A stretch of DNA of 63,953 nucleotides, counting the filler, from Nemertoderma westbladi (Eukaryota; Animalia; Xenacoelomorpha): NCBI GenBank assembly GCA_032718475.1. It is 4 parts of 4 records of this genome, joined end to end, with 100 filler letters (N's around TTAATTAATTAA, not from the genome) between each part and the next. Parts side by side here need not be neighbours in the genome. Positions count along the whole stretch, not along the records: positions 1 to 23,290 come from JAUCBJ010001845.1; 3 more parts are not named here. One strand, 5' to 3'. Positions 1,836-55,512 of this stretch are shown one piece after another. A program made the position numbers and the translations under genes. The notes beneath the pieces are model-generated. The model was not told where the DNA came from. It worked only from the letters and a program-made list of their open reading frames with translations, and did no database searches. Within the stretch, counting starts at the first letter, position 1; each line of letters opens with the position of its first letter.

Positions 1836-3583
1836 ACTACTAGGATCGGCATGCTGCATTGCAGCTGCATTTTTAAGAATGCTGTGCCGGCTTGTCAACA
1901 AAATTGCACCGCCACAACTCCCTATTACCCATGACATTTGCTAGATCATCCGCATCTTTAAGGCCAGTGTCCTTTAAGATGCGTCTCAAGAAAGTCATGG
2001 GCTGTCCACCATGCTTATTCACTCCATGAGGCTGCCAAAGTACAAGATTATGCACTGGCTGGTCCTCACGGCGAAAGCAATGTCCTGCAAAGCGGAGGCG
2101 ATTTTGTTCTAGTGTCAAGCTTGGGGGAACCAATGAGACACCTCCAATGTTATATAGTGTCTGGTTGGAGATGTGTGCATTGTACTTGACACAATGAACC
2201 CGGCGTAGCATTCTTGTGAATGTGCCATCCAGAGATTTGGTGTCCTCAGCAGTTAGAGCCCAGCATGGACTCCCGTAGAGGAGTACTGGAACTACTGCTG
2301 CTCTAAATAATCGGACCTTAAGTTTCCGAGTAATTCTCAGTGACTTCCAAATCCTGGAAAGCCTATTCAAGGCTGCCCATGCCTTTCCCTTACGTATTCG
2401 AAGGTCCTCACCTGACTTCCGGATCCATGATCCCAGGTAACAGAAGTCGTCCACATGCTCAAGCATACCATCCTTTGAGCTTATGCTCATCCGATCAGAG
2501 ACTTGCTGAGGACTTTCAAAGTTAACTGTCAGAATTTTGGTCTTTCTGGAGTTAATAAAAAGACCAACACTAGAAGCAGCATGTTCTAATGAGCTGAGGA
2601 GCCGTTGGGCTCCCTCTAATGATTCTGAGAGTACTCCTAAGTCATCAGCAAAGTCTAGATCAGTTAGGTACTTGGCAGGATTTCCTCGACTTCTGGAGCC
2701 AGTAGGTGGAGTTATCATCACCCCATCATCATTATAATGATCTAAGGACATGCGTAGAACATAGTCAACCACAATAATGAACAAGAATGGTGCAAGTGTG
2801 TCTCCTTGGAGGACGCCCCATAACACTTCAAATGGTTCTGTGTCACCGTCAACAGTAGACACAAATGTTGTCGAACCATCGTATACTGATCTGATTGCTG
2901 CAATAATTTCATCAGGAATCCCATATAATGAAAGTATGCTGAACATACGTGAGCGAGAGACTGAATCAAAGGCCTTGAAGAAGTCAACAAAGATAACAGC
3001 CAGATGCCTGTCTTTCTTTTTTGATAACTCTTCAATTATCCTTCTAAGTGCCAAAATGGGCTCCATGGTCCCACGACCTTTACGGAACCCATTCTGATTT
3101 CCACGGAGCAGTCTCTCAATGGGATCCCTGATGCGATTTAATAAAATCCTATTGTATAGCTTTGCAGCAATCGAGATCAATGAAATTCCCCGAAAAGAAC
3201 CATAGAGTGTTAGGTTGCCCTTCTTGGGAACTGGCACCAACTTATTTGTTTTCATCTCTTGTGGGACTCTTGTTGTTCGGTACATGTCTACTATGATGGG
3301 ATAGATGAGCTTTAAACACTCAGGTATTTTAAAGACCTCAGGGGGAACACCATCTACTCCACTGGCACGATTGGTCTTAATGCTCTTTGCAGCAGCCTTC
3401 ACTTCTGCAAAGGAGATATCGCCAATGGGAATATCTGGGAGTACAGACTCAGACACTTTTACTTCTATAAAGTTATCAGGCAATACCCTGTCATTATTGA
3501 GGAGCTTTTCAAAGTGGGCTTTCCAACCATTGAGGCGATCGGCTGGTGATTCAGCCTTAACCTTGGTGGTTGGGTTGGTATTG
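1836..3583 (-). mobile_element. 5'-truncated RTE-type non-LTR retrotransposon
   Basis: 14-bp TSD AACCGAACAATACT at 1822-1835 and 3584-3597. Short (TAG)n 3' tail on the minus strand, very short 3' UTR, open RT frame. Confidence 0.92.
1873..3583 (-). CDS. LINE reverse transcriptase (ORF2 C-terminal part, endonuclease lost)
   Basis: Uninterrupted frame with RGISL, QNGFR, FVDFFKAFDSV, GVLQGDTLAPFLF, DLDFADD, FCYLGS. The N-terminal residues of the ORF-track call (3584-3627) are read-through into host BEL sequence. Confidence 0.9.
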
Positions 3584-3993
3584 AACCGAACAATACTGGT
3601 ACCTGGACTGCATCGTCTTTTCAACACGTGAACTCGATGTCCCGAAGGTTTCTCTTATTGTCAGCATGGACTGTCCGACAGCCAATGAGAGACTACAAAC
3701 TATCTTTGGTGACGATAGAGAGCGAGATCCGGTAGCTATTCTAATGCCATTCGGATGGATGCTCAGTAGCCCAATAAAGACAAAGATCCCATTTAGCATA
3801 TCCGAATCCTTAGGGTGCATCTTTGCTGGGACGATGAGAAATGTAGAAGATGAAGGAGCGGAGGAACAGCTCAAGAGGCTGCTATGGCAGGATTTTGAGG
3901 GATTAAAATATATATTGGTGTGGGAACCTCAGTGGAGGATAAGCAGGCGCAGGAGAGTGTCAGGAGGTCAATGAAGTGTGAGGGGGGGGGGGA

Positions 3994-6119: not shown

Positions 6120-7191
6120 AATGACTCCGACAAGACAGCAGATTCCACATGCTGTCACCACAGCTGGAAAAGGATGGCATCCTAGTAATGAACTCCAGGG
6201 TAGCCAATAACACCAGTGTCTTAGTTACATAAAAGCCAGTAATAGTTCCCAACAAATCACCAATAGTCCACCAGATTATATGGGACACCCACAAGACAAT
6301 AATTCATGGCGGCACTAATGCAACCCTAAATGAGATCAGGAGGAAGTACTGGGTAATCCAACTTAGAAAGATGGTGAAGACAGTTGTGGCACAGTGCCAG
6401 ACCTGTCAGTGGATGAAGAAGGAGAAAGCCGAACAGGAGATGGCACTGTTGCCAACAACTAGGGTGAGACATCATGATCCACAATTTACACATAGCGGTG
6501 TGGACATGTTTGGTCCAATAAAGAGAAAGGTGATGCGACATACCGAGAAGTGCTACGGTATAATCTTCATATGTAACAACACGAGGGCTGTGGCGATAGA
6601 ACTGGCGCAGGACACAACGTCGTCGGCATTTATTAATGCATTAGAGCGATTCGTGACCCGATGAGGAAAAACGGTCGAAGTTCTTTATTCCGATAATGGC
6701 ACAAACTTCATTGGAGCGGATAATGAGTTGGTAGAGGCCTTCAATATTCTAGAGGGAGAGGATGTTAAAGGGGCGATGAGGAACCGCCTGATAAAATGGG
6801 AAAGGAGGACGCCATATGCACCGCATACGCTGGGTTGCATATAACGTCTGGTTAGAAGCTTAAAACGGCTGATGACGAAACTTCTCAATAATCATATGGT
6901 GACAGAGGATGTATTGAGAATGGTGCTGGCGAAGTGTGAGGGTAATTAACAGCCACCCACTGTATCCCGAGAATGATGATCCAGAGTTATTGGACATTCT
7001 GACACCAGCACATCTGCTTAGGGAGAGGCCAGCAGAGATATATATGCGATATATTGATGAAGATGATATAAACTCGCGATAGAGTTGGATGGTAGCTAGG
7101 GCGATTGGTGCAGAATATTGGAAAAGGTGGATTCAAGAGTACCTACCAATGCTGCACACGAGGAACAAGTGGAGGAATAACCAATGGTAAC
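6120..7191 (+). pseudogene. BEL integrase remnant (continues at 15215-15420)
   Basis: H..H / CxxC zinc motif, GVDMFGP, SDNGTNFIG, W..W..EYL. Cut by the nested LTR element. Confidence 0.88.
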
Positions 7192-7809
7192 TGTGAGCGG
7201 ATTCAATTCCGTCCACCACCCCATACAGTTGGGAAGTGGCGTTTTAAGCAATATTGGGGAGTACGAGGTTGATTACAATCAACCTCGTATCACCCCCAAT
7301 AAACGGGGACAACAAACCCCCAAAGAGCCACACACAATAGAGGTTATAGGTCAAACCTCTTGGAGAGGGAAAGTGCAGCAGCGGGGGGGGGGGGGGGGGG
7401 GGAACACTCCCACAGAGGTGGGAGCCGAGAATTAGGTTTTTGGCCAATGGGGGGCAAGGAAAGTGCATCCGCTAGATACAGAGGCCACAAGTAGAGTTGG
7501 TAATCAATATATTACCGGTCAGTGTTTATGTCCTATTCAGTTATCTCAGTCACTTAGGGCAGTACGGTGACACTTTAATACCGTCACTGCAGTCACCGAT
7601 TACATATCAATATATTACCGGTCAGTTAGATAATAACCAACGCACTACTATCATAATCTGTGCTATCATACCTTGTATCGTATACTATATCATATATATT
7701 TGGAGTTTATCAATAATATCGGAAGAACGACAAACTCTTTTTCCCATTCGCACGGTGATGCTGATGCGTAAATAAATCAAACCGGTCGGAATCCTTTGAT
7801 CCCGTCACA
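7192..7809 (+). repeat. 5' LTR of nested element
   Basis: Direct repeat of 14612-15209 with TGTGA/TCACA termini. Scattered substitutions and small indels between the two LTRs. Confidence 0.95.
7508..7542 (+). promoter_or_regulatory. LTR core promoter (TATA-like + initiator), predicted +1 at 7539
   Basis: TATATTA at 7508 and TCAGTT at 7537-7542 (spacing -31). The same layout appears in the diverged outer LTR. Confidence 0.6.
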
Positions 7810-7834
7810 GTATTAAAGTCACCCAGTACGCCTA
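7810..7834 (+). promoter_or_regulatory. Non-canonical primer-binding site complementary to the element's own LTR
   Basis: GTATTAAAGT (7810-7819) is the exact reverse complement of ACTTTAATAC (7572-7581). Pairing extends with bulges to 7555/7834. No TGG. Confidence 0.65.
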
Positions 7835-7885: not shown

Positions 7886-10825
7886 ATGAGTGAAGCCCGA
7901 AACCTAGAGGGAGAGACGACACCGCCGCGGACCCCAGACGATACGAACGAAACGATCCGTGAGGCCGCGACGCAACGGTATCGACCCGCAACGCTGGACT
8001 CGCCAGAAAGAGACGATCCGGCAACAACCCAAGCGGAGGGCGGCCGTCTACCAGAATGAGAGGACGAGTCGACGCACGACGGCGGACGACGTACCGATGT
8101 CGCCGGCCAGCCACAGGCCGAAGGCAATGGACGGCCCACTGCAACGGCGACGGTGGGGCCGCCAGTACGACGCCGAACCAGGAGGGGAGGAGGAGAGGTC
8201 GGCGACGAGGACGTCGGAACCAGTGACCGGCTCCGACGCGCGAGAGAATAAAGAGAGGGCTGAGAGGGTCGCGAGAAACTTTAGAGAGTGTGAGGAGATA
8301 GAAATAAGGGAAGGAAAGGAGCGAGAGGCGAGCGAGGCGAAAGAGGCGAGCGAACGTAAAGAGCGAGGGGCGAGAGAGGAGAGTGAGCGTAAAGAGTGTG
8401 AGGCGGAGCGAGGCCGCGCGGCCGCGAGGCGGCTTGAGAGGATTGCGAGGGAGGCGGAGTTGGCCGAGCAGAGTTTGCAAGAGGATAGAGAGAGGGAGAG
8501 AACGGGAAAGCGTGTGTGGGATGATATGCATGCCCGGTTGAGGGGGCTTATGCAGTATCAGGTCAAACAGAAGCGCCGATTGGAACTGGCGCGGTTGGGG
8601 CTGTCAGAGAGTGAGGCTGGCTCGGGTAGTGTTTACGAGGAGCCAGAAGTTATGGAAATGTTTGTTAATACCCCACTTACAGGGACCGGACGACAGACCC
8701 AAGACTGGTGTAACCATACGGGTGGGGGGGGGGGGGGGGGTAATAATAATACGTTAGAAAACGTTAATATTAATAGTACCGTAGTGGATAACCCTAATCA
8801 AACTTTCATTGCAGGAAATAATATTTTGCCCGATAATAGTAATTTAAATCTGAACGATCCTAATTTAAATGTAGAAAATAATTCAAATAATCTAGATTCG
8901 AATTTACAAAATAATTCAAATAATTTAAATACGCAAGATAATCTAAACAATAATTATAATTCAAACGAACAAAATAATCCCGATTCTAATTCAAATATAC
9001 AAAGTAATCTAAATAATTTAAATTCAGCACAAAATAATTCTAATAATTTAAATAATTCAGAAAATAATATTAATAATGGTGCTATTAATGTAAACGCGGC
9101 AAATGTAGGTGGCCCAGCAAACGAGAGCCTGGTAGGCCACGTAAACGGAGAAGCGGGGGTGAGAAACCCCGACGGGGGCCTGATAGGCCATGTAGTTAGT
9201 GCGCAGGGAGTGGCGGGGTTGAGTTAACCCGACGGGAGCCTGCCAGGCAACACAGTGATAGAGGGAGAGGCGGGGGTGGATAGACCCAGCCACAGTAGAG
9301 CTAGTGCGTCGACTCGAGGGGGGTGTAGAGGCGAAGTGAGAGATAGTGAAGTGATAGATGGCGAGTGGGGGGGGGGGGGGGCTATAGGAGCCCCATAACG
9401 AGAGATTAGCGGCGAGAGGGGGGGGGGGGGGGGCAGAGAGAGTCCCACAGGCGTCGGCGGATAATGCGCGGGGCAAATTAGGTGAACCGCAGCACCCGGC
9501 GATGGAGAATAGTAGGGGGATTACGAATATCCCCAGGGGCATGCGACTGGGTAGAGAGAGAGAGGTTGGCGTCGCGAGAGGGCGAGCGACGAAACGTCGA
9601 GCCCAGTCAGAAGAGGGAAGAAGAACAGTGGAGTTTAACCGGGAGGTCGATGAGAGATCTCACGAGCGGGGATGCTGCACTGCAGAGAGAAGAAGGGAAG
9701 AGAGTAGAAGAAGTGTCGTCACGAACGACAGGAGAGCGAGGACGGATAGTTAGCCGTCGGTAGTAGAGACGGAGTCGAAGAGTCGGTGGGGTCGAACTCC
9801 GGGAGATTGCCGTCGTCCTGGAGAAGCGCGACCTGACGAGGTGTACTATACACCGAGAGAGGGGTACAGGGCGTACCGGTATGAGGATGAAAACAGGAGA
9901 GGGGATCGAAGAGAAACTTCCCGACGGGATATATAGATGACAATCGAGGATACGGTAGCCGCGGGGAGAACTTCTTGGATTATTCGAGAAGGTTAAACTT
10001 CGATCCCGAGGGACACATACAGACTGCAGGACATACTGTAGGCCTTACTGCACATACTATAGGCCATGCTGGGAGAGATAATGTAGGCGATAGGGCAGCG
10101 CGGGCGACGGGATTAAACCCGGAAGTCGCGGAGTACATACCGGTAGGTAGGCTTATAGCAGTACCAGCACAACAGTATGACTATAGCATGCAAGGACATA
10201 ACATATATCCAGGGGAGGGGAGAGTTATTGCGGATAGGTGTATGGGCCCCAATATATTAACATCAACCCCAGTACCAAACATACCGGTGGGGGGGGGGGG
10301 GGGGGGCAAGGTGACATTCCCCCATCACAATATCAACAATATACTCAAACAGGAATAAGAACATCGAACCCCCTGGATGAGAACAGATCATGCGACACCG
10401 AAATATGGAGGGGGCCATTACCCCCAATGATATATCCGACGCAGAGGAGGGCAACAGATAGGCCGGGCGGACCGCACCCAACAGGAGAATCTGTACAGCA
10501 TCCATCGAACCCATTAGAGGCACAGGCGATGGGAATGGCTACATTAATCGATGCATTAAAGACCAGGATCGAGTTACCACCCGTAGAACCATTTAAATTC
10601 GATGGAAGTAGGCCGGAAGAATACCTGCAATTTCGGAGTATGTACAGCAATGAAATATTGACGAAGAACCTGACGCAGGCGGAGTGCCTAAAATATCTAC
10701 AGGTGTATACAGGAGGCCTAGCATACGACATCGTGAGGCAGTACCAGGGCATCAAGGTGGCCGAAGAGATAGGATTGATGACGATGCCAAGTAGAATGGC
10801 GGTAACAACCATCTCCAGTAAGTTA
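7886..10825 (+). pseudogene. Gag-like region of nested element (E/R coiled-coil, Asn-rich tract, gag core start, protease fragment)
   Basis: ORFs 7959-9227 and 10238-10936 (IELPPVEPFKFDGSRPEEYLQF...CLKYLQVYTGG). Homologous to 55.3-57.2 kb, with frameshifts at G homopolymers. Confidence 0.8.
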
Positions 10826-11337
10826 CCCTATAGGGAGTTAGTTAGTAAGATGGTACGTAGTACCGTTAGTAGAAGAGTTAGTAAGAGAGTACGTGTAGTA
10901 CCATTAGTAGAAGAGTTAGTAAGAGGGTACATGTAGTACCGTTAGTAGAGGAGTTAGTAAGAGGGTACGTGTAGTAAGAGTTAGTGGTAGAAGGGTATGT
11001 AGTATATAGTAAGAGTTAGTAGAAATTAGTTAGAAAGTTAGTAGAGTTAGTAGTGCTGTAGTTAGTAGTAATTAAATATTAAAATTAGAAATTAGACAAA
11101 TTATGGTAACAGTAGGTAAGATATTCCAGAATACAATTAAAGTAACTGACAAAAATTACAGAATTTAGTAAATTTAGCACTTTTAGGAAATAAAGGTAGG
11201 AAAATTAGGCAATAACCCAACATTCAGAGAGAGATAGGCCATTATCGAACCGTACAGACCATCCTAACTACATCACTCACTTATATTGTGCCTTGGCAAG
11301 GCCCCACCTTATAGGTGAGCGATCGGGAGAGTTCGAA

Positions 11338-12300
11338 ATGGCGGAGAAACTTGTCAGAAAGAGAAAGGCGGAGTTGGGAGGAAAGGAGATACTGGTGGAT
11401 TTCACCGAAAAGCATCTGGAAGAGAAGACGAGGGGATACTACGAGCGGTTAGAGAGGGGTCACAAAGCGCGAGCGCTGCAGGACCATTTCAGGGAGGTGC
11501 ACGAACAGCGGCTGGTCGGAACCTATGGGACACCGTCGCTAGACAACGCGATCTTCGAGCACTTCCACTACGTGGTAAAGGGAGACGAGGCGAAGTTCGG
11601 GATACCGAAGTATCCAAAGGAACCACCGAGAAAGGACTGGAAGAGGTTCGTAGAGTCCGTCAGCAGGGGAGGATACCTGGTCCTAGACAATGAGGGGACC
11701 GTGGAAGACGAGGAAGGTTCGAGAAGAGGGTCGGCGGGGTTGGCCAGAGCCATATTCCTACATTTGGCCCAGCCAAATGGGGATATATTCCTGTTTGATC
11801 TGGGAACGTATGGGAAGAAGAACGGGCCGAAGTTAAACCGGTTGCCAAAGGCGGTGCAGAGCCTAGTAAGAGAGAAGTCGACGATAAAGGTGGGATCGGC
11901 GATCTGCGACAACGCAGAGAGGATCAACGGTCCAGAGACCCCCAACCTCCTGGACATGCAAATGGTCTACATGGCTATGACAGCGCCAGGCGGGTTGGGA
12001 CTAGTAGAGAATGCGGGCCATTGTGGAGTGGTGGCGATGGGCCTGTTAATGGGGCTCATATGCCACAAGCCAATGGACTGGAGTAAATTCAGAGAGGAGT
12101 ACGGAGCGGAGTTGGCGAACTCGCTGAAGTGGGGAGCGAGACCGGGGAAGCAAGAGGTGTATCAATTGCGGAGAGGAGCGATAAAGGTATATCAGAGGCG
12201 ATATATCCTGCAGGAGGACTGGATAATGATAGGTTTGCTAAACCTATTCATGACCGTGGTTATCGAGAGAGAACCAACGGCATTTCTGCTATCGGGATGA
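11338..12300 (+). CDS. Extra ORF part 1: DEDDy (RNase D/WRN/EXD-like) 3'-5' exonuclease-like domain
   Basis: First ATG at 11338. LVLDNEG (ExoI DxE), IFLHLAQPNGDIFLFDL, LPKAVQSLVREKSTIKVGSAICDN, NLLDMQ and YQRRYILQED follow the WRN-exo/RNase D motif order as recognised by eye. Confidence 0.65.
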   Translation: MAEKLVRKRKAELGGKEILVDFTEKHLEEKTRGYYERLERGHKARALQDHFREVHEQRLVGTYGTPSLDNAIFEHFHYVVKGDEAKFGIPKYPKEPPRKDWKRFVESVSRGGYLVLDNEGTVEDEEGSRRGSAGLARAIFLHLAQPNGDIFLFDLGTYGKKNGPKLNRLPKAVQSLVREKSTIKVGSAICDNAERINGPETPNLLDMQMVYMAMTAPGGLGLVENAGHCGVVAMGLLMGLICHKPMDWSKFREEYGAELANSLKWGARPGKQEVYQLRRGAIKVYQRRYILQEDWIMIGLLNLFMTVVIEREPTAFLLSG

Positions 12301-13879
12301 CCCCTGAACTACAGAAGAGCCTTCAAAGTGACTTTCGAGGGTCTGGTAGACCACCCGGGGCTGAAGCTGCCGATATCTAGTAGACAGGGAGGTGGATACG
12401 CCATATCAGAGGTGGGAGCAGCTAGAGGCGGATAGACGAGAGGCGAAGCGATTGGAAGAAATTGCTAGACGAGAAAGGAGGGAGGCAGAAGAAAGGGAGG
12501 CGGAAGCTAGAGGAGAGGGCTACGGGTTCAAGGAACAGGCGGCCTTAGACGACCTACACTGGACATCAGGGAGTTCGGGTGAGTCTCTAGGGCGAGAATT
12601 GGGGTAGACGGTAGGATCACCGAAACAGTCAACATTGGGATTGCAGACGACGCCCATACCAGCGGGCGCCGAGGGCGATTTCGCGCACAGGAGGCCAGGG
12701 GGACTGGAAGGATGGAGAGTAACGGGCGAGAGCCAAGGTGGGAAGGGACACAGTGGATCCACCGGGATACCGGGATTGGAGCCACTCCCAGAGGAGGACG
12801 AGGATGACGACGAGTTCAGAGAGATGCCGCCCATCGGGAGAATCGGCCACTCAGACACGGACTGGGTTGGCGGGAGGGTGGTGACGGCCAGCGGGGCGAG
12901 GGCCTTCTGGGATAGACCCGGCAAGCGGGCCTGGGTGCATGAGGAGCCGGCGATGGATTTCGCGGGGAGCACCATCAGATTGGGCGAGCAACCGGGAACG
13001 GCACCACGGGTAGTATTCGGAGAGACGATGCCCGGACGGGGCGAGGAGATAGACGTGGACAGGGACACTAATGTCCAGAAGTTCGCTTACCAGCGACTCC
13101 ATAGACCGAGGAGATCGCTTGGGACGAAAGACGACGTGGGGCGGGAGGCATTGGTACTCGGCTGCGATTACTGCGGGAGGCAAACTCACCAGGAAAGGAG
13201 CTGCTTGTACCGATTCCAGAAAGGGACTAGCTGTCTCTACTGCCGCGAGTCGAGTCATAGGATGGGGGCGTGTCCACGGTTGCACAACCGGTGTTCTAAG
13301 GGCAACTTCCGGGGCACTACGGACGCCAGTGCGACTGGATGGACAACGAGGAGAAGTTTAGGATCTTCGAGGAGTGGGCCGATGTCGGCGCCATGACCCG
13401 GCAGCGGATGAAGGCCCAGGAATTCCGGAGGGGCTTCTTTAATATCAACCAGGAGGCCCACCTGGAAATCATCAAACAGAGACTTCCGTTTACATATCAG
13501 GAGGTGTCAACGGGCGTCGTATGCCGGAGTGATAAATACGCAGAGGTATTTGGACAGGTGGACGCCACAGAACCGGGGAGAGTTCAGAGATTTCTTGGCA
13601 GAGCATGTGCCGCGGGCTATGAAAGTGATCCTATGGGATGCCACTAGTGGGAAACAACAGGGCCATTCGGAGGAGCCACCCGTGAAGCGATACCGGGAGC
13701 TAATAACACCAGCGCCCAGGGAGTCGACGACGGGAATCAGTAGAGAGGTGACAGCAAGGATCAGGAACCTAAAAGGGGATAAGAGCAAGGGAGCGGCAAC
13801 GACTAGGAAACGACCGAGGGAGGAGGACGACGGAGGGAAGGAGTTGATATGGTTCCCAAAGTCAGGTGGAGCAAACTAG
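12301..13879 (+). pseudogene. Extra ORF part 2: coiled-coil, acidic linker, three CCHC zinc knuckles (frameshifted continuation)
   Basis: ORFs 12392-12607 and 12635-13396 share a frame. CDYCGRQTHQERSC, CLYCRESSHRMGAC and (across a 1-nt shift) CSKGNFRGHYGRQC lie at 13163-13332. Continues in 13339-13647 and 13529-13879. Confidence 0.65.
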
Positions 13880-14611
13880 AACTTAGATGTGGAGATGCCT
13901 GGAAGGCACCACATGTGAAGTAATACGAACTCCTAAGTGCAAATTTAATTAAAAGTACAATTAGTATGTACATATGTAATAATCATTAGTATAGTCACAT
14001 AGCAAATATAATCAAAGTAAGTACTATAGTCATATAACCTTTTCCAATTAGCTACTGGGACTGGGGACCAATTGACTATGACAGGATGAGGCATTAGACG
14101 ACTTCATACTTCTTGAGTGCGACGGCACAGGAGGGGAGGGTGAGGCTCGGCAGGAGTGAATGGGTTAATAGTAGACGAGAATAGAACGCGAGGAGAGAAG
14201 GCAAGTGCAATTCAAGTGTGGGGGGGGGGGGGGGTAAGAGGTAGAGTGAGGGACAAGGAGGTCCGAGAGTTAGAGTGGAAGTAGAAGAGAAGTAGAGGAG
14301 AATCAGGATGAGAGTGGAGAAGTTAGAGTCAGTCAGAGCGGAGTTAGAGTGGAAAGAGTAGTGGGGAGGTAAAATTGTGTGAGAGAAATCCACAATTGTC
14401 TTGACACGAGACGCCAGATGTCTTGGTGCGACATAGGTGAAGTTGCACCAAGAGAGGGTTGCAATATCATACCCATAGGGAGCGGCCTGGAAAGCCAGCT
14501 CCAAGAAAGAGAATTCCACCCCACACCCGATAGTAGATCAGGTTCCAGTGGAATTGAAGCGCACTCGTTGGTGATGCTATCTTCTCACCGGGAAGATAGC
14601 ATGGGGGGGAG

Positions 14612-15209
14612 TGTGAGCGGATTCAATTCCGCCCACCACCCCATAAAGTTGGGAAGTGGCGTTTTAAGCAATATTGGGGAGTACGAGGTTGATTACAATC
14701 AACCTCGTATCACCCCCAATAAACAGGGACAACAAACCCCCAAAGAGCCACACACAATAGAGGTTATAGGTCAAACCTCTTGGAGAGGGAAAGTAACAGC
14801 AGTGGGGGGGGGGGAAACACTCCCACAGAGGTGGGAGCCGAGAATTAGGTTATTGGCCAATGGGGGGCAAGGAAAGTGCATCTGCTAGATACAGAGGCCA
14901 CAAGTAGAGTAGGTAATCAATATATTACCGGTCAGTGTTTATGTCCTATTCAGTTATCTCAGTCACTTAGGGCAGTACGATGACACTTTAATACCGTCAC
15001 CGCGGTCACCGATTACATATCAATATATTACCGGTCAGTTAGATAATAACCAACGCACTACTATCATAAACTGTGCTATCATACCTTGTATCGCATACTA
15101 TATTACATATATTTGGAGTTTATCAATAATATCGGAAGAACGACAAACTCTTTCTCCCATTCGCACGGTAAATAAATCAAACCGGTCGGGATCCTTTGAT
15201 CCCGTCACA
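14612..15209 (+). repeat. 3' LTR of nested element
   Basis: Follows PPT GGGGGGGAG, repeats 7192-7809, and has a terminal hairpin CGGGATC-CTTT-GATCCCG. Confidence 0.95.
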
Positions 15210-15214
15210 GTAAC

Positions 15215-16382: not shown

Positions 16383-16917
16383 TGTTAGCGAATCCAATCC
16401 GCTGCACCCCACCCAGTGAGGAAATGGGGAACAAAGTGATTTACGAGTCACAGTTAAGTATGCAATATTATATCCAATATAATATTGCATACCAAGGAGA
16501 ATGTAGGGCAATATAATGCCAGCTTGGAGATAGATACCAACATATATCAGGGAAGAAGCTAGCATAGGGCCGGAGGAAATAGGGAGTGGCAAAGGGAAAA
16601 CCAAGCAATGGCGGGACAGTACATGTGCAATTAACAGGTATCTATTGGTAGGTCAACATGTAGGTAGAAATGTATAATAAGCTTTCTAAGCAATGTGTAT
16701 AAAACCGTTACTCAATATTAATTATGTTCAGTTGGCTATTAATTACTGTGGAAGTCGGGCGGTTTTGACCATCGTCGCTAGTGCATACTGATTGTGCTGT
16801 TGTTTACAGGTACTTATATAAATCAGCTATTATTAACAACGATAAACCATAAACTTTTTTATTTACCGACTCACGGGACGCAGGTATATTACCTGCGCCA
16901 ACGCAGATCCCGTCACA
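16383..16917 (+). repeat. 3' LTR of outer BEL element
   Basis: Follows PPT AGAAGGGGAG. Starts TGTTAGCG and ends GATCCCGTCACA like the nested LTRs. TATAAAA at 16698 and TCAGTT at 16728-16733. Confidence 0.85.
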
Positions 16918-17610: not shown

Positions 17611-18007
17611 TTGCGTCGCAAATAGTTTAAATACTTCGTTTAAATAGTTCAAATTTTTTTTTGCACAAGTATGTGGTGGCCCTAGTAGGTCGGTCGTAGA
17701 TAAATTCCCGATCAAGATAAATTACACCATAATTGCTCTGGACTCACAAAAAAAGTCTTTATCTATCACAAAGATATCAAAGTTCAAGATTCCTGAACTA
17801 AACTACCATAACATATTTCTGCTTACATCTGTAGCAACAAATACAAGGTATATTATATCTACCATAGTTTAGTACAAGTGTAGATAAGTTATTAGACAAT
17901 TCTCTACCTCTTAATATACCATTGACATGATGTGTTATTGCGTTAATTGAATACTGTAGAACAGTTGTGTATTATTACGAAATAATTTCCAATATAACTG
18001 TGGGAAA

Positions 18008-20851
18008 ATGGAGGCAATTAAATATCTTATTGGGTTACTCGTTATGTTGGCATTGCTTTCTACCCCAATTCTTGGAAACTTGCGTCTACGGCGGTCACAG
18101 ATATCGACATCAAAAAATGGTTACATCAATGTACTAATTGCTATTGGTAGAGATGTTAAAGAAATGGAAAATCCAAATCTCATTGACAACATTAAAGAGA
18201 TTTTTACAAGAGCCTCACAACAAATGTTAGAATCAACATACCAGCGGTTGTATTTCAAGGAGATTTCGATTCTTATTCCATGCACCTGGAACCATACCTC
18301 TAGTTATCAGACACCAACCGACGAATCATTTAATACTGCGAATATAATTGTTGACAAAGCCAACCCTATTTTTGGAGACAATCCATATGTTAAACAGCCT
18401 GGTGGCTGTGCCCAACCTGGGGAATACATGCATCTCACACCTGGGTTGATTAATGACCACGAACTTTCATCTCTCCTCTGGGGTGACCTGGGCAAGATGA
18501 TTGTTCATGAATGGGGCCATCTTCGATGGGGTCTATTCGATGAATACCCACTAAATGATGGTGAACATTTCTACAGAGATTCCAATGGTGAAGTCCAAGC
18601 TACACGATGTGGGTTGAAGGTGGCGGGAGAGAGTCGACATTCAGAGACTTATGATCAATGCGAACTGGATCCAACAACAAGCCTTCCTGAGAAAGATTGT
18701 CGATTCTTTCCCTCTATGGATGAAGATGAGAACACAGCTATTGGCTCAATGATGTTTATGCAGTTCATTCCTGGGATTTATCACTTTTGCCATTCGGACC
18801 CTGATTTTGCAGATGATTTCCATAACAATGAATCTCCAAACAAACACAATATTCAGTGCAAAGGTGCTGCTGCCTGGGACATAATGGACTTTCATAAAGA
18901 TTTCTTAGGAGGTGTTAATCCACCAATCTCGGATCTCGATGATATCTCTATAACGCCAACATTCACCTTACTACAACCATATTCCAGGCGTGTAGTCCTG
19001 ATACTCGATGTTAGTACCAGCATGGATAAAGAGAATCGCATGGCCCGTATGAGGCATGCAGCAGGAAGATTTATATTTTCGTTCATAGAAACGGGAAGTT
19101 ATCTTGGTATAGTCGGATTTGCTAAAAGAGGTTCCACATTACACAACATTGTCGCAGTAAACAGTGATAGGATAAGAGAAGATCTAGCAAACAGTCTACC
19201 CACCAAAACCGGTTCGTATACTTCGATTGGTGCCGGTGTTAATGAAGCTATGAAAATACTGGGATCTACCACTAAAGGCACTCAATTTATTATCCTAAGT
19301 GATGGTGAAGAAAATACGAAACCAAACGTTCACACTTTACAATCTCAACTAGAAAGAAAAGGTATCTCATTAAATGCGATATTACTTGGCAATAAAGCAA
19401 GTAGAAAACTTGTGGATATGGTGGAGGACATGGGTGGAATGATATATTATGCCCAGGATGGTTCTGATAGTTCTGGATTAGATGATGCTTTCTCTTCATT
19501 AATTACCAATAATCCATCATGTGATGGATCCCCCGTGGTGCATGTTACATCAAATCAATATTTACCAAGTTCTTCATCTCGAAGTAAACGTAACATTCGT
19601 AATGTATTCCATGTTGACAAATCATCAGCAAAAGCGGGCTTGCAGTTGAGTTTTTATTGGTCGGAGGGATCTGTGTCCGTATCAGTTACTGTATACAGGC
19701 CATCAGGAGTTGCTATATCTGACACTGGTAGCCAATATGTTTACAAGAATGGCAATTTCAAATATCTAAGATTTAGCATTCCAGATGCCGAAGAGGGAAA
19801 GTGGTCTTATGACCTTAGCAATCCCACTGGCAAAAATCAACAGGTTAAGATAACTATTCTTACTGAAAGTGATAAGGGGAAAGGTAATGAACCAATTACC
19901 TTGACAGGAAGGACAAACCGGGCAACTATCACTTATAATGAAAACGGTATTGGTGGCAGCAAAATAATACCTACAGTATATGCGGATCTCAGCCAAGGTG
20001 AAACGCCTGTCCTCAACGCAAATGTCATGGCTAACATTGAAGGCGCTGGAGAAATAAAGCTAATTGACAATGGTGCTGGGGCTGATATTACAGTTAATGA
20101 TGGAATATATTCAGCTTACATAACTGGTATACGTAAGAATGGGCTTTACACCATTCAGATATATGCAGATAACTTAAACAATACAGCTAGTATTCCTCAA
20201 GATACGGTCAATAGACATAGAGGTAAACGATCTGGTTCGCTCCCAATCCCTACAAACCATGATGGCACTGACGAGTTCGCATTAGAGTCACTTGGTGGCT
20301 TCTCCCGGGAAAGTAATATTGAAGCCTTTGAGATCACTGGAATACCTGGAGGGACCAATGATCTGTATCCACCATCCAGAGTCACTGATCTCAAGGTGAC
20401 GGGTGTATATCCAAACAACAAGACATTCGAGATAACCTGGACGGCCCCTGGCGACGATATGGATTTCGGAAGAGCCAATCACTATGTGATCAGATATTCA
20501 CAAAATGTCACCGCTATGTACACTGACTTTGATAAACAGAGTATTATTAAAGAAGAAAATGTCTTTATTGGCAATTTAAGTTCTCCTTCTAAAAGTGGAA
20601 ATCTCGAAAATTTTATGATAGAAATACCAGATGGTTTACCTGGCAACCAGGTATATGCGCTGTCATTGGTTGCCGTGGATAACGCTAAGCGTGTTGGTGA
20701 AGTAAGCAATGTCGTATCTGTTCCGTTAGTAACTGTGGCAACAGGAGCAAATATTGGTTTGATTGTTGGGCTTATTGTTATGTGCGCGGTGATTGCCTGT
20801 GCTGTCGGAATTGGAGCCTGGTTTATACTACGTCGGCGCATAGGGCAGTAG
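18008..20851 (+). CDS. CLCA: Calcium-activated chloride channel regulator (CLCA) family protein, single-exon, type I membrane
   Basis: 947 aa with signal peptide, zinc-metalloprotease VHEWGHLRWGLFDEY, Cys-rich region, VWA MIDAS DVSTS / LSDGEE, DNGAGAD...DGIYS, FnIII (PPSRVTDL, WTAPGDDMDFG), and a C-terminal TM helix followed by RRR. AATAAA at 21263. Confidence 0.95.
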   Translation: MEAIKYLIGLLVMLALLSTPILGNLRLRRSQISTSKNGYINVLIAIGRDVKEMENPNLIDNIKEIFTRASQQMLESTYQRLYFKEISILIPCTWNHTSSYQTPTDESFNTANIIVDKANPIFGDNPYVKQPGGCAQPGEYMHLTPGLINDHELSSLLWGDLGKMIVHEWGHLRWGLFDEYPLNDGEHFYRDSNGEVQATRCGLKVAGESRHSETYDQCELDPTTSLPEKDCRFFPSMDEDENTAIGSMMFMQFIPGIYHFCHSDPDFADDFHNNESPNKHNIQCKGAAAWDIMDFHKDFLGGVNPPISDLDDISITPTFTLLQPYSRRVVLILDVSTSMDKENRMARMRHAAGRFIFSFIETGSYLGIVGFAKRGSTLHNIVAVNSDRIREDLANSLPTKTGSYTSIGAGVNEAMKILGSTTKGTQFIILSDGEENTKPNVHTLQSQLERKGISLNAILLGNKASRKLVDMVEDMGGMIYYAQDGSDSSGLDDAFSSLITNNPSCDGSPVVHVTSNQYLPSSSSRSKRNIRNVFHVDKSSAKAGLQLSFYWSEGSVSVSVTVYRPSGVAISDTGSQYVYKNGNFKYLRFSIPDAEEGKWSYDLSNPTGKNQQVKITILTESDKGKGNEPITLTGRTNRATITYNENGIGGSKIIPTVYADLSQGETPVLNANVMANIEGAGEIKLIDNGAGADITVNDGIYSAYITGIRKNGLYTIQIYADNLNNTASIPQDTVNRHRGKRSGSLPIPTNHDGTDEFALESLGGFSRESNIEAFEITGIPGGTNDLYPPSRVTDLKVTGVYPNNKTFEITWTAPGDDMDFGRANHYVIRYSQNVTAMYTDFDKQSIIKEENVFIGNLSSPSKSGNLENFMIEIPDGLPGNQVYALSLVAVDNAKRVGEVSNVVSVPLVTVATGANIGLIVGLIVMCAVIACAVGIGAWFILRRRIGQ

Positions 20852-21295
20852 TAGAGATTTATTAAGACCCCTCCAACTCAGCGAGACGCACACATATAGG
20901 TAATTCGTGTAATTTGTTGTGATTTATCATTTCGTAAATTATTTTTCAAGTGATATTAATTAATATGAATGTTAAATAGGCGGTATAATATATAATATAT
21001 AATATATAAATTATTATATTATTATTATTATTATTGAGTGATTTAAACTGTTATATGAACAACAACCCATTTTAGTATCGACTGAAACCTTTGAATATTA
21101 TAAGGTAGGCCAACATTAGGTTCGATGATACCTGTAGAACATACGCAATAATTACACTAAAATTATGTAGATTACTGCTATTTGCGAATTTATTATATAT
21201 ATATTATAACTTTATAATTTCTTTTTATTTTGGGGTTAATTATTTAAACTAGAAGAGAATTGAATAAAAATTATAATACAATACAGTATTTCCTC

Positions 21296-21851
21296 TATAG
21301 CCCACTGATTTCCGTGTCTCTTACACCTTAATTGAGTTCCAACCTCACTATAGTGCCCACTGAGTTCCGTGTCTCTTACACCTTAATTGAGTTCCAACCT
21401 CACTATAACGCCCTCTGAGTTCCGTGTCTCTTACACCTTAACATAGTTCCAACCTCACTATAACTCCCTCTGAGTTCCGTGTCTCTTGCAACTTAATTGA
21501 GATTCAAACCTCACTATAGTGCCCCACTGAGTTCCGTGTCTCTTACAACTTAATTGAGTTCCAACCTCACTATAGTGCCCACTGAGTTCCGTGTCTCTTA
21601 CAAATTTATTGAGATCCAACCTCACTATAACTCCCTCTGAGTTCCGTGTCTCTTACAACTTAATTGAGTTCCAACCTCACTATAGTGCCCACTGAGTTCC
21701 GTGTCTCTTACAACTTAATTGAGATCCAACCTCACTATAACTCCCTCTGAGTTCCGTGTCTCTTACAACTTAGTTGAGATCCAACCTCACTATAGTGCCC
21801 ACTAAGTTCCGTGTCTCTTACACCTTAATTGAGATCCAACCTCACTATAGT
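21296..21851. repeat. 55-bp tandem repeat, about 10 copies
   Basis: Unit CCCACTGAGTTCCGTGTCTCTTACACCTTAATTGAGTTCCAACCTCACTATAGTG. Two variants (TAGTGCCCAC / TAACTCCCTC) are interspersed. Confidence 0.95.
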
Positions 21852-21898
21852 GTTGTTTACTGGGTGAATTTCAGTTAACAGAAGAATTTCATGTTAAC

Positions 21899-22056
21899 AT
21901 GGTAGGATACAGGATTGGTGACATGTTAGGATACCGGGTGGGTTATAGGGCGGGTTACAGGTTAGGATACAGGGTGGGTTACATGGTTGATTACAGGGTT
22001 GGTTACAGGGTGGGTTACAGGGTTGATTGGATACAGAGTGGGTTGCAGGGTGGGTT
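21899..22056. repeat. Degenerate 12-bp minisatellite
   Basis: GGGTTACAGGGT-type units. Confidence 0.8.
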
Positions 22057-29274: not shown

Positions 29275-32089
29275 TCGAGACATTTAAAAATTGTGGTGCT
29301 ATAAGTATCTCCGCCGAGGTTTCACATATGCGTGGGTCGCCTAGAACCCGGAACATCCATATCCACCATCAAAAACAATCTCACTAGCAGGAACATCGAA
29401 GTTGATCACGTGTTTAACATAACCCCTCTAACTGTAATCCTAACCAGAACGACTCCCAGCCACTGACACCCCAATGTGAGGTCTTTCACATTGTGTGCCC
29501 CACCTCAGCAGCTGCCGACGCTGTTTACACACCGAACTGCTGGCCAAGAGGTACAACAATTAGACGACACCTTCTTGGAGAAGAAGACAGAACCAACCTA
29601 AAATTAAAGTTGCAACCCGCTCATAAAGTGGATTGACACAACCAGCTGTTTGACTGGTCTCCCCTGAGGCAACATTTTCCCCAGAGACTACTGTTTCCCC
29701 TGAGACTATTATTTCCCCTGAGACTGCTGTTTCCCCTGAGACTACTTTTTTTCCCTGGGACTGTTGTTTCCCCTGAGACTACTGTCTCCCCTGAGACTGC
29801 TGTTTCCCCTGAGACTGCTGTTTCCCCTGAGACTGCTGTTTCCCCTGAGACTGCTGTTTTCCCTGAAACTACTGTCTTTCCTGAGACTGCTGTTTCCCCT
29901 GAGATTATTATCTTCCCTGAGTCAACTCCTTTCAATGATACTATGGTTTCCCCTGAGTCTACTGTTTCCCCAGAGACTACTGTTTCCCCTGAGTCAACTC
30001 CTTTCCATGAGATAGGGGTCTGCCCTGAAACTACTGTTCCCCATGAGACCACTGTGTTCCCATAGACAACTTTTACCCATGAGACTACGTTTTCCCTTGA
30101 GACTATGTTTGCCCCTGAGACTACTATTTCCCCTGACACTATTGAGTTCCCAGAGACTACTGTCTTCATTGAAACTACAGTTTCTCCTGAGACTACCGCC
30201 TTCCCTGAGATTATGGTTGCAGATACAGATATATCCAAAGGCATCAAACACCGAGTGAAATCTTTGAGGATGCAGATGTCTTGCTTCTAACTGAAACACT
30301 ATGCGACGTTGATGTAGTTGTTAAAATCTCATATTATCCATTCATCCAACCAGTTAAGAAGTTACTTCGCGGCCAGCCAAGATGATTACATCATCTTTCA
30401 ATACAATACATCATCATCTTACAAGATTTCATTGGAGGCCTGATGATTCTTAGTAAACCAGAACTAAACCCAAAGTTTATTAAATCAACAGCTGCTTATA
30501 TAGTTGTTGAGACAAATTGCGCCTTCTTTTTAGTCTTCCACTTTACACCAGATACACCTCTTGAAGATATATACTCATGGTAAATCCTTCCTATTCTTGT
30601 AGGTTTATATAATGTGTGCGTAAATGTTGGGTCCTTACCTTCATCCTGGAAAACAAACATAATTAAAATACTCTACAAGGGTAAAGGAAGCCCAACCTCG
30701 CCGGAAAATTATAGAGGTATTGCCCTCATCTCAACCCTACTAAAGATCTTGACAACTGTAATAAACAAATCTCTCTCACATCAATCACTGGCTTCCCGAG
30801 GAACAGTTTGGAGATTTACCAAGGGTAAATCAACGCTTCAGGCACTGAGAAAACTGTTAAACGATGTGTCTTCAACATTGCGAGGAGATGGAGACTCCCA
30901 CGTAGTATACGCGGTGTTCGTTGACTTCAGGAAAGCTTTTGACTTTGTCAATGAATCAATCCTACTCTATAAAATGTACTACTCATTCGGTATTCAAGGC
31001 AATTTGTATACATTGATCCAAGACCTCCTTAGAAACTCCATTCGAGTCTATGACGGAATTAAAAACTCCAAGTTGTTAAATCAACTTCGCGGTATATTAC
31101 AAGGAGACTGCTTCTCACCAAGTTGTTTCCTGATTTTTATCGCTGACCTCGCCATAGCTCTTCGCCACATCTCTGCGATCATAAAATCTATATTTTTCGC
31201 AGATGACTTGGTGATATATTCCTCATGTCGTGATGACATCCAGTGCGCTCTTAACACACTACACAACAATGGAACTCAACATCAGCAAAACTAAAATTCT
31301 AAAGTTTAGAACGGGCCTGTCGACTCGCGCATCTGGATAAATTTACATATGGCGGGAAAAGAAAACTATAGATATATGTAACCAGTATGAATACTTGGGG
31401 GTTGTACTACAGCCAACATTATGCTTCACAAAGCACTTAGATCAAAAGAAGCAGAAATGCTTCGCAATTATTGGGTGTCTTCCAAATCTCCAGCTCTTGT
31501 CCATTGGAACTGGAATAAAAATATTGGAAATGAAGATCATGCCTTGTGTGACATACGCCTTCTCGGAAATCGCCAAACACTTCACCGTTGGCTGGGGTTG
31601 CAGAAAAATTCCTCTACTACTCTAGCTCTAAAATTAACTGACTGCAAAACACTCATTGAAGATCTAGCAACTAAAACTCCAACTTTGTTCGACCCTGAAG
31701 TTTTGCTGAAATATAAGCAGTACAGACTCGGGCGGGAGGAGAACTTCATCTCAATGGGTTACTCTCATGGCCCAGGCTTCAATTCAAATGTCTGGAAAGG
31801 CTCAATGCAGTCGAACAGACACCTTGTCACCCGGGTAACCTCTCATGGTTTCCATTTTAAACTCTGCCTTGATCGAATGCCGTTTCATGAACTGACAGAT
31901 GCATGCCGGTGTCATCAATTCTGCGGTGATTCAGCACAGGATAGGTATCATGTCCTACTTTGCAGCAGCTGCCTCTCCATCGCGTCCATCTCACAGACAT
32001 AACTCTCTATCTAATTACCGTAATGTATACTGTTTATAATGTTATTTTATTTCATAGTAATAAAATTCAATAAATTCAATAAAAAAAAA
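29275..32089 (+). mobile_element. Decayed non-LTR retrotransposon (CR1/L2-group-like)
   Basis: ORF1 C-terminal WPRG..IR motif (about 29540), endonuclease remnants (DVLLLTET, GGLMIL), RT 30614-31294 (YRGIAL, FVDFRKAFD, GILQGDCFSP, FADD), and a 3' AATAAA repeat plus A-tail. 5' boundary approximate. Confidence 0.8.
29660..30215. repeat. 18-bp minisatellite (CTGCTGTTTCCCCTGAGA-type)
   Basis: Homogeneous units around 29770-29860 with degenerate flanking units. Confidence 0.9.
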
Positions 32090-33114: not shown

Positions 33115-33175
33115 TACTAATGAACAATAACTGCATGTGTAACTGAACTCTGAAATCTATAAATCTAGAGGCCTG

Positions 33176-55000: not shown

Positions 55001-55512
55001 ATACCGGTATGTCAAAAGCAGTAATTCATAAATTTCTCAATAACTGTAGTTTATTACAAGCCAATATATAGTTTCAAACTTCCCACCAAAAATGCTGTGT
55101 TTATACTGTCCAATAGAATACGTTCAAAATGAATCAACTGTTAAAAAACAATATTTTATGGTTTTTTATGCTATTTTAGTGAAAAGTGAGTCTGGGAGTC
55201 GTATATCTATTAGCTCATAGATCGATAACTATAAAAGATATGAATAAACCGTTTATATTTTTGAAATCCCCTTAAAATTTACTACTAAATGAGATCAAAA
55301 AAACGATTTTCCAAATTTTGGTTCCAAATTACTATCCACCCCACCCCCCTTAAACGAACAAAATAATCCAAATAATTCTAATTTAAATATACAAACCATT
55401 CCAAATAATAGCCCTAACTCTGAGCAAAATAATTTAAATAATTTAGATAACAATATTATTGATAATGGTGCTATTAATACGAATGTAGGGGACACAGGTG
55501 GTCCGGCCAGCG

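What the first reader, a model, noticed from the sequence alone, without database searches (positions are those of the whole stretch)
11338..13879. LTR element cargo: DEDDy exonuclease-like domain fused to a coiled-coil and three CCHC knuckles, in the env position
Seen: between the deleted pol and the PPT lies a coding-like region of about 2.5 kb that is absent from the 3' region of the outer element. It has RNase D/WRN-type motif order (LVLDNEG; LHLA..GDIFLFDL; LP....L......KVG; LLD; Y...ED), an E/R helix, and CX2CX4HX4C knuckles at 13163-13332. ExoII and ExoIII acidic residues are shifted, so catalysis is uncertain, and this copy has frameshifts. From memory, DEDDy ORFs have been reported in some rotifer and nematode gypsy-like elements; I do not know this architecture in BEL/Pao. 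Inference: an RNA-binding nuclease or pseudo-nuclease that might counter small-RNA silencing or trim element RNA, possibly the self-primer.
Basis: partly seen in the sequence, partly recalled or inferred. Interest (0 to 1): 0.8.

Follow-up and report, generated by a model that had tools for sequence, protein, structure and literature searches.

The report
BEL retrotransposon exonuclease–zinc-knuckle accessory gene
A broken jumping gene in an animal genome carries a third gene whose protein is predicted to fold like an RNA-trimming enzyme joined to zinc fingers; the same gene follows the polymerase gene in dozens of related elements, some with and some without the cutting residues, so it is likely a long-kept RNA-binding helper that would shield the element from host RNA silencing.

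Summary
Confirmed in substance. 11338-13879 is a decayed third gene (ORF3) inside a pol-less BEL/Pao element (LTRs 7192-7809 and 14612-15209, 5-bp TSD) nested in another BEL integrase. This copy has two stops and three frameshifts; two knuckles are intact, the third is broken. Pfam, PDB and phmmer miss it. A scan for the knuckle motif alone gave 120 metagenome loci; 27 of 35 with enough upstream DNA have a BEL integrase upstream, and 44 of 63 long ORFs share the N-terminal domain. That family profile hits EXD2 (E 3e-11), and the model (pLDDT 84) matches WRN, Nibbler, RNase D and EXD1 (Z 12-14). 21 of 42 relatives keep all four catalytic acids; a 16-member clade lost them yet shows dN/dS 0.17-0.45. 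ORF3 distances track pol distances. The coiled coil is not conserved (6 of 42). Self-primer trimming is unlikely as the general role, since relatives have tRNA-type primer sites. Catalysis in this copy is unresolved; function is untested. DEDDy ORF3s are published for rotifer gypsy-like elements, and this scan noted others in gypsy elements on other DNA; I found none in print for BEL/Pao or with these knuckles.

The parts
7187..7191 (+). Left copy of the 5-bp target-site duplication, inside the C-terminal part of the outer element's integrase
   Evidence: right copy at 15210-15214
7192..7809 (+). 5' LTR of the inner BEL/Pao element (TG...CA)
   Evidence: 3.2% mismatches to the 3' LTR
7810..7833 (+). 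Primer-binding position; no TGG, complementary to LTR bases 7558-7581 (10 bases perfectly): possible self-priming site
   Evidence: 0 of 1000 LTR shuffles reach the score; 23 against best 22; paired in MFE and centroid folds but z = -1.46
7908..10761 (+). Broken gag region; 9121-10761 is 79% identical to the third BEL element at 55627-57244
10758..10822 (+). Protease-region stub joined to gag after a deletion of about 1 kb; no RT, RNase H or integrase homology follows
10840..10976 (+). 38-base tandem repeat (3.7 copies) in the non-coding spacer before ORF3
11338..11619 (+). ORF3 start codon and N-terminal extension of about 94 residues
11620..12297 (+). DEDDy-type 3'-5' exonuclease-fold domain: ExoI D/E at 11686-11694, ExoII region 11908-11913, ExoIII Y and acids 12202-12219
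12298..12300 (+). In-frame stop not shared by other copies
   Evidence: over 99% of depth in runs X1 and X2 differs at this codon
12404..12515 (+). E/R-rich helix in a low-complexity linker, after a frame change near 12370; not conserved in the family
12605..12607 (+). Second in-frame stop not shared by other copies
   Evidence: over 99% of depth in X1 and X2 differs
13163..13204 (+). CCHC knuckle 1 (intact)
13232..13273 (+). CCHC knuckle 2 (intact)
13292..13332 (+). CCHC knuckle 3, broken in this copy (one ligand missing, frameshift)
13333..13512 (+). Conserved segment after the knuckles (FE..A..G..T..R...GF), part of the same family domain
   Evidence: (E 8e-7)
13513..13879 (+). C-terminal part of ORF3 after a further frameshift, to the stop
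14603..14611 (+). Polypurine tract
14612..15209 (+). 3' LTR of the inner element
15210..15214 (+). Right copy of the target-site duplication; the outer integrase frame resumes after it

Best explanation
This is a decayed copy of a third gene of BEL/Pao retrotransposons that encodes a predicted DEDDy exonuclease-fold domain and a three-knuckle zinc domain, and the protein likely grips single-stranded RNA with the knuckles, holds RNA 3' ends in the nuclease pocket, and would thereby blunt host small-RNA silencing of the element. Shown: the gene, its position after pol in many relatives, both domains, purifying selection, and a split into acid-retaining and acid-less clades (confidence in this anatomy about 0.95). 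Inferred by analogy with Trypanosoma RNase D: the knuckles supply RNA affinity and, where the four acids are kept, feed the 3' end to a two-metal site that trims it. Inferred from the conserved acid-less clade: binding, not cutting, is the indispensable activity. Inferred from ORF3-less relatives in the same window: the role is accessory, not core replication. Guessed among accessory roles: interference with piRNA/siRNA maturation or with decay of the element's RNA, because the nearest folds include Nibbler, EXD1 and Egalitarian. Whether the window's own family cuts RNA is open (about even).
For: Fold: ESM Atlas on the window protein alone gave PF01612-bearing clusters for 24 of 30 hits (score 0.93, 175 shared features, family on 50% of members). 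Family profile hits EXD2 E 2.8e-11 and Egalitarian E 0.0035. Model pLDDT 83.9; Foldseek top rows Egalitarian, T. brucei RNase D, Nibbler, EXD2; VIA-align Z 14.2 apicoplast polymerase exonuclease, 13.7 WRN, 13.6 Nibbler, 13.2 RNase D, 12.3 EXD1, rmsd 2.9-4.4 over 161-184 residues. Family: 27 of 35 loci with at least 5 kb upstream carry a BEL integrase upstream on the same strand; 17 of 19 neighbouring ORFs scanned hit Pao Peptidase_A17 above cut-off; 44 of 63 long ORFs share the nuclease domain. Selection: dN/dS 0.09-0.47 in 16 unsaturated of 19 nuclease-domain pairs, 0.17-0.45 in the 8 unsaturated acid-less pairs; among 24 listed variant sites in the window's own family, polymorphic sites are 10 silent to 3 replacing, sites private to this copy 3 to 8. 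Pol and ORF3 distances correlate (Spearman 0.89, 0 of 2000 permutations, 16 elements). Analogy: the CCHC domain of TbRND raises RNA binding and cleavage (PMC7797062, section read). Accessory: the outer and third elements of the window lack the gene.
Against: No activity, substrate or expression data exist. The window protein alone has no Pfam, NCBIfam, PDB or phmmer hit, and the single-sequence model failed (pLDDT 32.5); the good model depends on an alignment at 11-24% identity. The fold matches DNA-proofreading exonucleases as well as RNA enzymes, so RNA specificity rests on the knuckles. ExoII and ExoIII acids of this copy are off register. Nothing here separates counter-silencing from handling of the element's own RNA. 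dS is high (0.7-3) and the pairs are not independent. The variant-site count uses only the best-supported rows that the tool printed. Kin share distances, so the pol/ORF3 correlation shows co-inheritance at most.
Confidence: 0.45

Rival explanations
1. ORF3 serves the element's own RNA: it binds the genomic transcript and helps to localise, package or mature it (as the dead DEDD domain of Egalitarian does for mRNAs), or trims RNA or DNA ends during reverse transcription.
For: Egalitarian-RNA complexes are the top Foldseek rows. Knuckles of this type are nucleocapsid-like (established). Co-inheritance with pol across 26-83% pol identity suits a cis-acting partner. Rodriguez et al. propose 3'-end processing of element RNA for rotifer DEDDy ORF3s (PMC5408684, Discussion).
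Against: Two related BEL elements in the window lack ORF3 at the matching place, so it is not needed for replication in this lineage. Relatives with ORF3 have ordinary gag-pol ORFs of 2100-2400 residues.
Confidence: 0.35
2. ORF3 trims the self-primer made from the 5' end of the element's transcript.
For: The window's element has no TGG primer site and its primer position is complementary to its own LTR.
Against: At least 10 of 17 relatives examined have a TGGC(G/A)CC-type tRNA primer site ahead of gag, both acid-retaining (L024, L027, L033, L049, L075) and acid-less ones (L029, L056, L078, L080). Making a self-primer needs an internal cut, which in Tf1 is done by RNase H (recalled), not a 3'-5' exonuclease.
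Confidence: 0.05
3. ORF3 acts for the host or limits the element itself, degrading RNA of competing elements or viruses, or damping its own transcripts.
For: Half of the relatives keep all four acids. A mut-7-like silencing role was raised for rotifer ORF3s, and antiviral roles for other retroelement accessory domains (PMC6338049, passages).
Against: The gene stays within multi-copy, diverging elements; an acid-less clade is equally conserved. The same rotifer paper argues that self-limiting elements would be out-competed.
Confidence: 0.1
4. The region is a passenger: a captured host fragment, a duplicated gag knuckle array or a separate nested insertion, with no function for the element.
For: This copy is broken at five places; no direct database hit for the window protein.
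Against: Intact ORF3 in the same slot in many relatives, dN/dS well under 1, the knuckle profile does not match gag of 11 relatives (best E 0.18), no inverted or direct terminal repeats around the region, and the stops are private to this copy.
Confidence: 0.04

Closest known systems
DEDDy ORF3 of bdelloid rotifer Juno and Vesta LTR retrotransposons and Athena/Terminon retroelements (Rodriguez, Kenefick, Arkhipova 2017, PMC5408684; passages and Discussion read)
   Same: A DEDDy exonuclease ORF downstream of pol in place of env, no transmembrane segment, function unknown; DEDD changed to DEED in that paper's alignment.
   Different: Those elements are described as retrovirus-like rotifer lineages, not BEL/Pao; the paper has no occurrence of 'CCHC' and says these ORFs lack coiled coils (it notes a Cys-His-Cys motif in Vesta2 and Vesta5); it found no departure from neutrality, whereas this family shows purifying selection and a conserved acid-less clade. 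Homology between the two ORF3 sets was not tested (sequences not available to me).
Trypanosoma brucei RNase D, TbRND (PDB 7C42; PMC7797062, abstract and one results section read)
   Same: DEDDy domain followed by a CCHC zinc-finger domain; Foldseek rank 2, VIA-align Z 12.2 with 17% identity.
   Different: A cellular guide-RNA trimming enzyme with four fingers and U preference; here three knuckles lie 70-480 residues from the nuclease domain; the knuckle profile does not hit TbRND, so the shared layout may be convergent.
Cellular WRN/EXD-type DEDDy proteins: EXD2, WRN exonuclease, Nibbler/mut-7, EXD1, Egalitarian (Pfam PF01612)
   Same: Same fold; EXD2 is the best profile hit (E 2.8e-11). EXD1 is cited as a catalytically dead RNA binder, like the acid-less clade.
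   Different: Identity 10-19%; only 1 of 47 ORF3 proteins passes the PF01612 cut-off; ORF3 has a long insertion between ExoII and ExoIII. The donor was not identified.
Belpaoviridae / BEL-Pao elements with env-like third genes such as Tas, Cer7, Cer13, Atlas (PMC8742986 whole text; PMC9094657 and PMC554778 passages)
   Same: Same element family and same gene slot.
   Different: The described third genes are fusion glycoproteins; this ORF3 has no transmembrane segment (1 of 42 marginal). The ICTV profile lists only gag, pol and env. I recall, without being able to check (paper not held), that an exonuclease-like domain may have been noted in nematode Cer elements.

Membership tests
BEL/Pao LTR retrotransposon (Belpaoviridae) | LTRs of 0.2-1.2 kb with TSD and PPT | tested here: met
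   618 and 598 bases, 5-bp TSD, PPT
BEL/Pao LTR retrotransposon (Belpaoviridae) | Pao-type pol (PR-RT-RH-IN; Peptidase_A17) | tested here: inconclusive
   The inner element has lost pol. Its gag is 79% identical to the third element, which is 67-71% identical to the outer element with Peptidase_A17 and DUF1759 hits. ORF3-bearing relatives: 17 of 19 ORFs scanned hit Peptidase_A17. Filed as a non-autonomous derivative.
BEL/Pao LTR retrotransposon (Belpaoviridae) | tRNA-complementary primer-binding site | tested here: not met
   No TGG after the 5' LTR; LTR-complementary instead. Relatives do have TGG-type sites. ICTV lists tRNA-Arg or Gly sites. This lowers 'typical member', not lineage.
BEL/Pao LTR retrotransposon (Belpaoviridae) | Placement in a named clade (BEL, Pao, Tas, Suzu, Sinbad, Dan, Flow) by RT phylogeny | not testable with these tools
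   No named reference elements could be fetched
DEDD/DnaQ-like 3'-5' exonuclease fold | RNase H-like core with ExoI-II-III in order | tested here: met
Active DEDDy exonuclease | ExoI D-x-E | tested here: met
   D117 and E119 in the canonical columns
Active DEDDy exonuclease | ExoII Asp in register | tested here: inconclusive
   Asn in the canonical column, Asp one before; the state in other copies was not among the printed rows
Active DEDDy exonuclease | ExoIII Y-x3-D | tested here: inconclusive
   Tyr present; Glu at +4, Asp at +5. 21 of 42 relatives have all four acids
Active DEDDy exonuclease | Metal-dependent 3'-5' exonuclease activity | not testable with these tools
   needs an assay
Rotifer Juno/Vesta DEDDy ORF3 lineage | Sequence homology closer than to cellular DEDDy proteins | not tested
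   rotifer sequences were not fetched
env gene | Transmembrane anchor | tested here: not met
   highest 19-residue hydropathy 1.46 in the window pieces; 1 of 42 relatives reaches 1.9
BEL/Pao Gag triple Cys-His box | Third finger ends in His; homology to gag nucleocapsid | tested here: not met
   Third ORF3 knuckle mostly ends in Cys (83%) against CX2-4CX3HX4H for Gag (PMC554778); the profile gives best E 0.18 on 11 gag-pol proteins

The most novel reading that the evidence does not exclude
An old, widespread and unannotated lineage of BEL/Pao retrotransposons encodes a dedicated suppressor of piRNA/siRNA silencing built from a DEDDy domain and three zinc knuckles, which evolved from a trimming enzyme into a pure RNA-end decoy in one clade; in this organism the gene rides on a high-copy pol-less, self-priming satellite element that supplies the suppressor in trans to an autonomous partner that lacks it.
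Probability: 0.15. Interest if true: 0.85.

Novelty: new variant of a known kind. Interest (0 to 1): 0.64.

Why it matters
Animal LTR retrotransposons have few characterised accessory genes other than env. This one defines a large family (about 250 stored stretches estimated in one metagenome collection) that Pfam and source annotations miss, with naturally intact members in both catalytic and acid-less forms. That natural pair makes it directly testable whether a retrotransposon-borne DEDDy protein works by cutting or by binding RNA, and whether it counters small-RNA defence, a question left open by the rotifer work. It also shows that the third-gene slot of Belpaoviridae is not limited to envelope genes.

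Tried and rejected
No genome is held for the window, so copies could be seen only through run contigs. Direct searches with the window protein found nothing: Pfam, NCBIfam, PDB sequences, word-seeded homologue search, phmmer over 1.84 billion representatives, peptide-pattern scans of metagenome and viral contigs. BLASTP against E. coli RNase D was uninformative (best E 0.014 over 39 residues). Single-sequence AlphaFold failed. The knuckle motif had 0 matches in viral contigs and 5 in 596 billion prokaryotic bases (not examined, taken as background). The knuckle-domain profile has no significant PDB hit (Air2 at E 8.8), and ESM Atlas gave only leads under 0.9, so a resemblance to Air1/2 that I recalled is not supported. 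No RNA holder was listed, so splicing at the AG sites near 11300 and 11315 is untested. The careful tree did not finish; the quick tree was used, and the window's row is a long branch with no supported placement. Contig depth was not used to rank parts. No loose ends at the gag/protease junctions were among the printed rows (24 of about 3500 shown), too weak to show that the pol-less layout is family-wide. Cluster look-up gave no names or hosts for 10 relatives. My recollection that Cer9/Cer19 carry such a nuclease was not borne out by bioRxiv 10.1101/825315 (0 occurrences of 'nuclease').
Full report
Setting. The window is animal DNA; no assembly is held. An outer BEL/Pao element runs from before base 552 to its 3' LTR at 16383-16917, with DUF1759, Peptidase_A17 and integrase zinc-finger hits. 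Inserted in the end of its integrase is an inner element with LTRs at 7192-7809 and 14612-15209, 3.2% diverged, flanked by a 5-bp duplication. The inner element holds broken gag, a 65-base protease-region stub joined after a 1-kb deletion, no further pol homology, a spacer with a 38-base tandem repeat, the region in question, 730 non-coding bases and a polypurine tract.

Observation. Stops follow at 12298 and 12605, and frame changes near 12370, 13310 and 13512. Two perfect CCHC knuckles lie at 13163-13204 and 13232-13273; the third is broken. Contigs of four runs, three of which hold the stretch and one of which shares only the species label, were laid on the element: 21,110, 13,686, 13,601 and 158 contigs aligned at 80% or better, mostly 90-99% in the three holders, so this is a large, diverse repeat family. 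At both stop codons over 99% of the depth in X1 and X2 reads otherwise; indels at the two later frame changes appear in 2-6 contigs per run, and 11 contigs of X1 run on unlike the window at 12366. The breaks therefore look private to this copy. Of 24 printed variant sites in the first ORF (best-supported rows only; most rows were not shown), those polymorphic in the family are 10 silent to 3 replacing, and those where this copy stands alone are 3 to 8: the pattern of a constrained gene with a decaying copy.

Direct searches. The window protein has no hit in Pfam, NCBIfam, PDB sequences or two large protein collections, and folds poorly alone. ESM Atlas gave a lead: 24 of 30 hits were clusters with PF01612 on half of their members.

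Relatives. A degenerate motif spanning knuckles 2-3 matched 120 metagenome loci, with about 250 estimated in the collection, against 0 in viral contigs and 5 in 596 billion prokaryotic bases. Flanks were fetched for 80. Of 35 with at least 5 kb upstream, 27 have a BEL-type integrase upstream on the same strand; three more have Peptidase_A17 ORFs. Many show an unbroken gag-pol ORF of 2100-2400 residues followed at once by an unbroken ORF3 of about 640-1280 residues. These loci were chosen on the knuckles alone, yet iteration from the window's N-terminal domain gathered 44 of 63 ORFs of 300 residues or more; two identical rows were dropped, leaving 42. A profile without the window row scores the window protein 49.1 bits against at most 3.3 for 1000 shuffles (the domain limits and alignment were made with the window row present). 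One of 47 relatives passes the PF01612 cut-off and two more hit below it. A protein search with the profile returned 14 further proteins, 9 with the exact knuckle motif, none named or with Pfam domains. Most loci come from one series of contig names, with several other series represented; hosts were not identified.

Fold. The family profile hits EXD2 (E 2.8e-11), Egalitarian (0.0035) and, weakly, WRN. AlphaFold with the alignment gives pLDDT 83.9, pTM 0.83. Foldseek ranks Egalitarian, T. brucei RNase D, Nibbler and EXD2 first. VIA-align over 48,161 chains gives Z 14.2-12.2 for the apicoplast polymerase exonuclease, WRN, Nibbler, diDNase, RNase D, RRP6, EXD1 and TbRND, rows within 1 Z being tied. 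Giant-virus 3'-5' exonucleases lead the viral library. The donor is unresolved.

Catalysis. 21 of 42 relatives keep four acids in register. A clade of 16 has lost the ExoI Asp and most other acids (SH-aLRT 100 in the quick tree; the careful search did not finish), yet has dN/dS 0.17-0.45 in 8 unsaturated pairs; all 16 unsaturated pairs of 19 give 0.09-0.47, and knuckle-domain pairs 0.08-0.48 (rough, dS high). The window copy has ExoI intact, Asn in the ExoII column with Asp beside it, and Y-x3-E-D at ExoIII: inconclusive.

Other parts. The knuckles belong to a conserved domain with a following FE..A..G..T..R...GF segment, not derived from gag and without a solved relative. The linker varies from about 70 to 480 residues and is E/K/R-helical in only 6 of 42; there is no transmembrane segment. 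Pol and ORF3 distances correlate across 16 elements whose pol identity spans 26-83%, consistent with long co-inheritance. The window's outer element is 23-32% identical to these in one RNase H-region piece, so the window's lineage is distant from all of them.

Mechanism. TbRND, a DEDDy enzyme with a C-terminal CCHC domain, needs the fingers for RNA binding and efficient trimming (PMC7797062, section 13). I infer the same division of labour. Conservation after loss of the acids implies that binding is the kept function, and ORF3-less relatives in the window imply an accessory role. Counter-silencing (0.45) is preferred only slightly over handling of the element's own RNA (0.35); nothing here tests either. 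Self-primer trimming is unlikely as the family role because relatives have tRNA-type primer sites, although the window's element itself may self-prime (fold z only -1.46).

Literature. Ten searches found DEDDy ORF3s only for rotifer Juno/Vesta and Terminons (PMC5408684, passages and Discussion; PMC6431247, PMC5718144, PMC6338049, passages). The ICTV Belpaoviridae profile (PMC8742986, whole text) names only gag, pol and env. The BEL/Pao survey PMC3118150 and the Sinbad paper PMC554778 have no occurrence of 'exonuclease' in the main text (supplements not seen). PMC2774666, PMC9094657, PMC11662393, bioRxiv 825315 and 2026.03.22.711591 (passages) gave no such report. Subscription papers, Repbase and GyDB were not searchable, and I recall that an exonuclease-like domain may have been noted in nematode Cer elements (paper not held). 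This scan's earlier notes list DEDD cargo in gypsy elements on other DNA (unchecked) and none for BEL/Pao or for this sequence.

Verdict. A real accessory gene: a new variant of a known kind, with a new host superfamily, a new domain partner and paired catalytic and acid-less clades. Function is untested. Interest 0.64.

Noticed in passing
window 7558-7581 and 7810-7833: The primer position after the 5' LTR has no TGG and is complementary to the LTR interior (10 bases perfect, 24 imperfect), as in self-priming Tf1-type elements (comparison recalled). One paper search on self-priming and BEL (listing only) showed no obvious report for BEL/Pao.
   Followed up: partly
L024, L027, L029, L033, L049, L056, L059, L062, L078, L080 (5' ends): ORF3-bearing relatives share a TGGCGCC-type primer site, which I recall as tRNA-Lys-like; the ICTV profile lists only tRNA-Arg and tRNA-Gly for this family.
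   Followed up: partly
L007, L045, L047, L053, L070, L082: ORF3-like proteins with the knuckle domain in which the nuclease domain was not detected or only weakly (L007 E 0.01): possibly more divergent or with another N-terminal cargo. L047 also has a further 1589-codon ORF downstream with no Pfam hit.
   Followed up: no
window 17960-20851: An uninterrupted 963-codon CLCA-like gene (CLCA and VWA Pfam hits) with no introns, 1 kb past the outer LTR.
   Followed up: partly
window 1873-3654 (- strand): A LINE reverse transcriptase ORF (RVT_1, DUF6451) inserted in the outer BEL element.
   Followed up: partly
window 55350-59363: A third, deleted BEL element whose gag is 79% identical to the inner element and whose integrase end matches the outer one; no ORF3 follows.
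   Followed up: partly
window about 61300-62550 (- strand): A stretch that looks by eye like a piggyBac-type transposase (recalled motifs, not tested).
   Followed up: no
window 40830-43000, 29696-30253, 21238-21949: Tandem arrays with 65-, 18- and 55-base units; large inverted repeats at 32265-34350 and 53060-54726.
   Followed up: no
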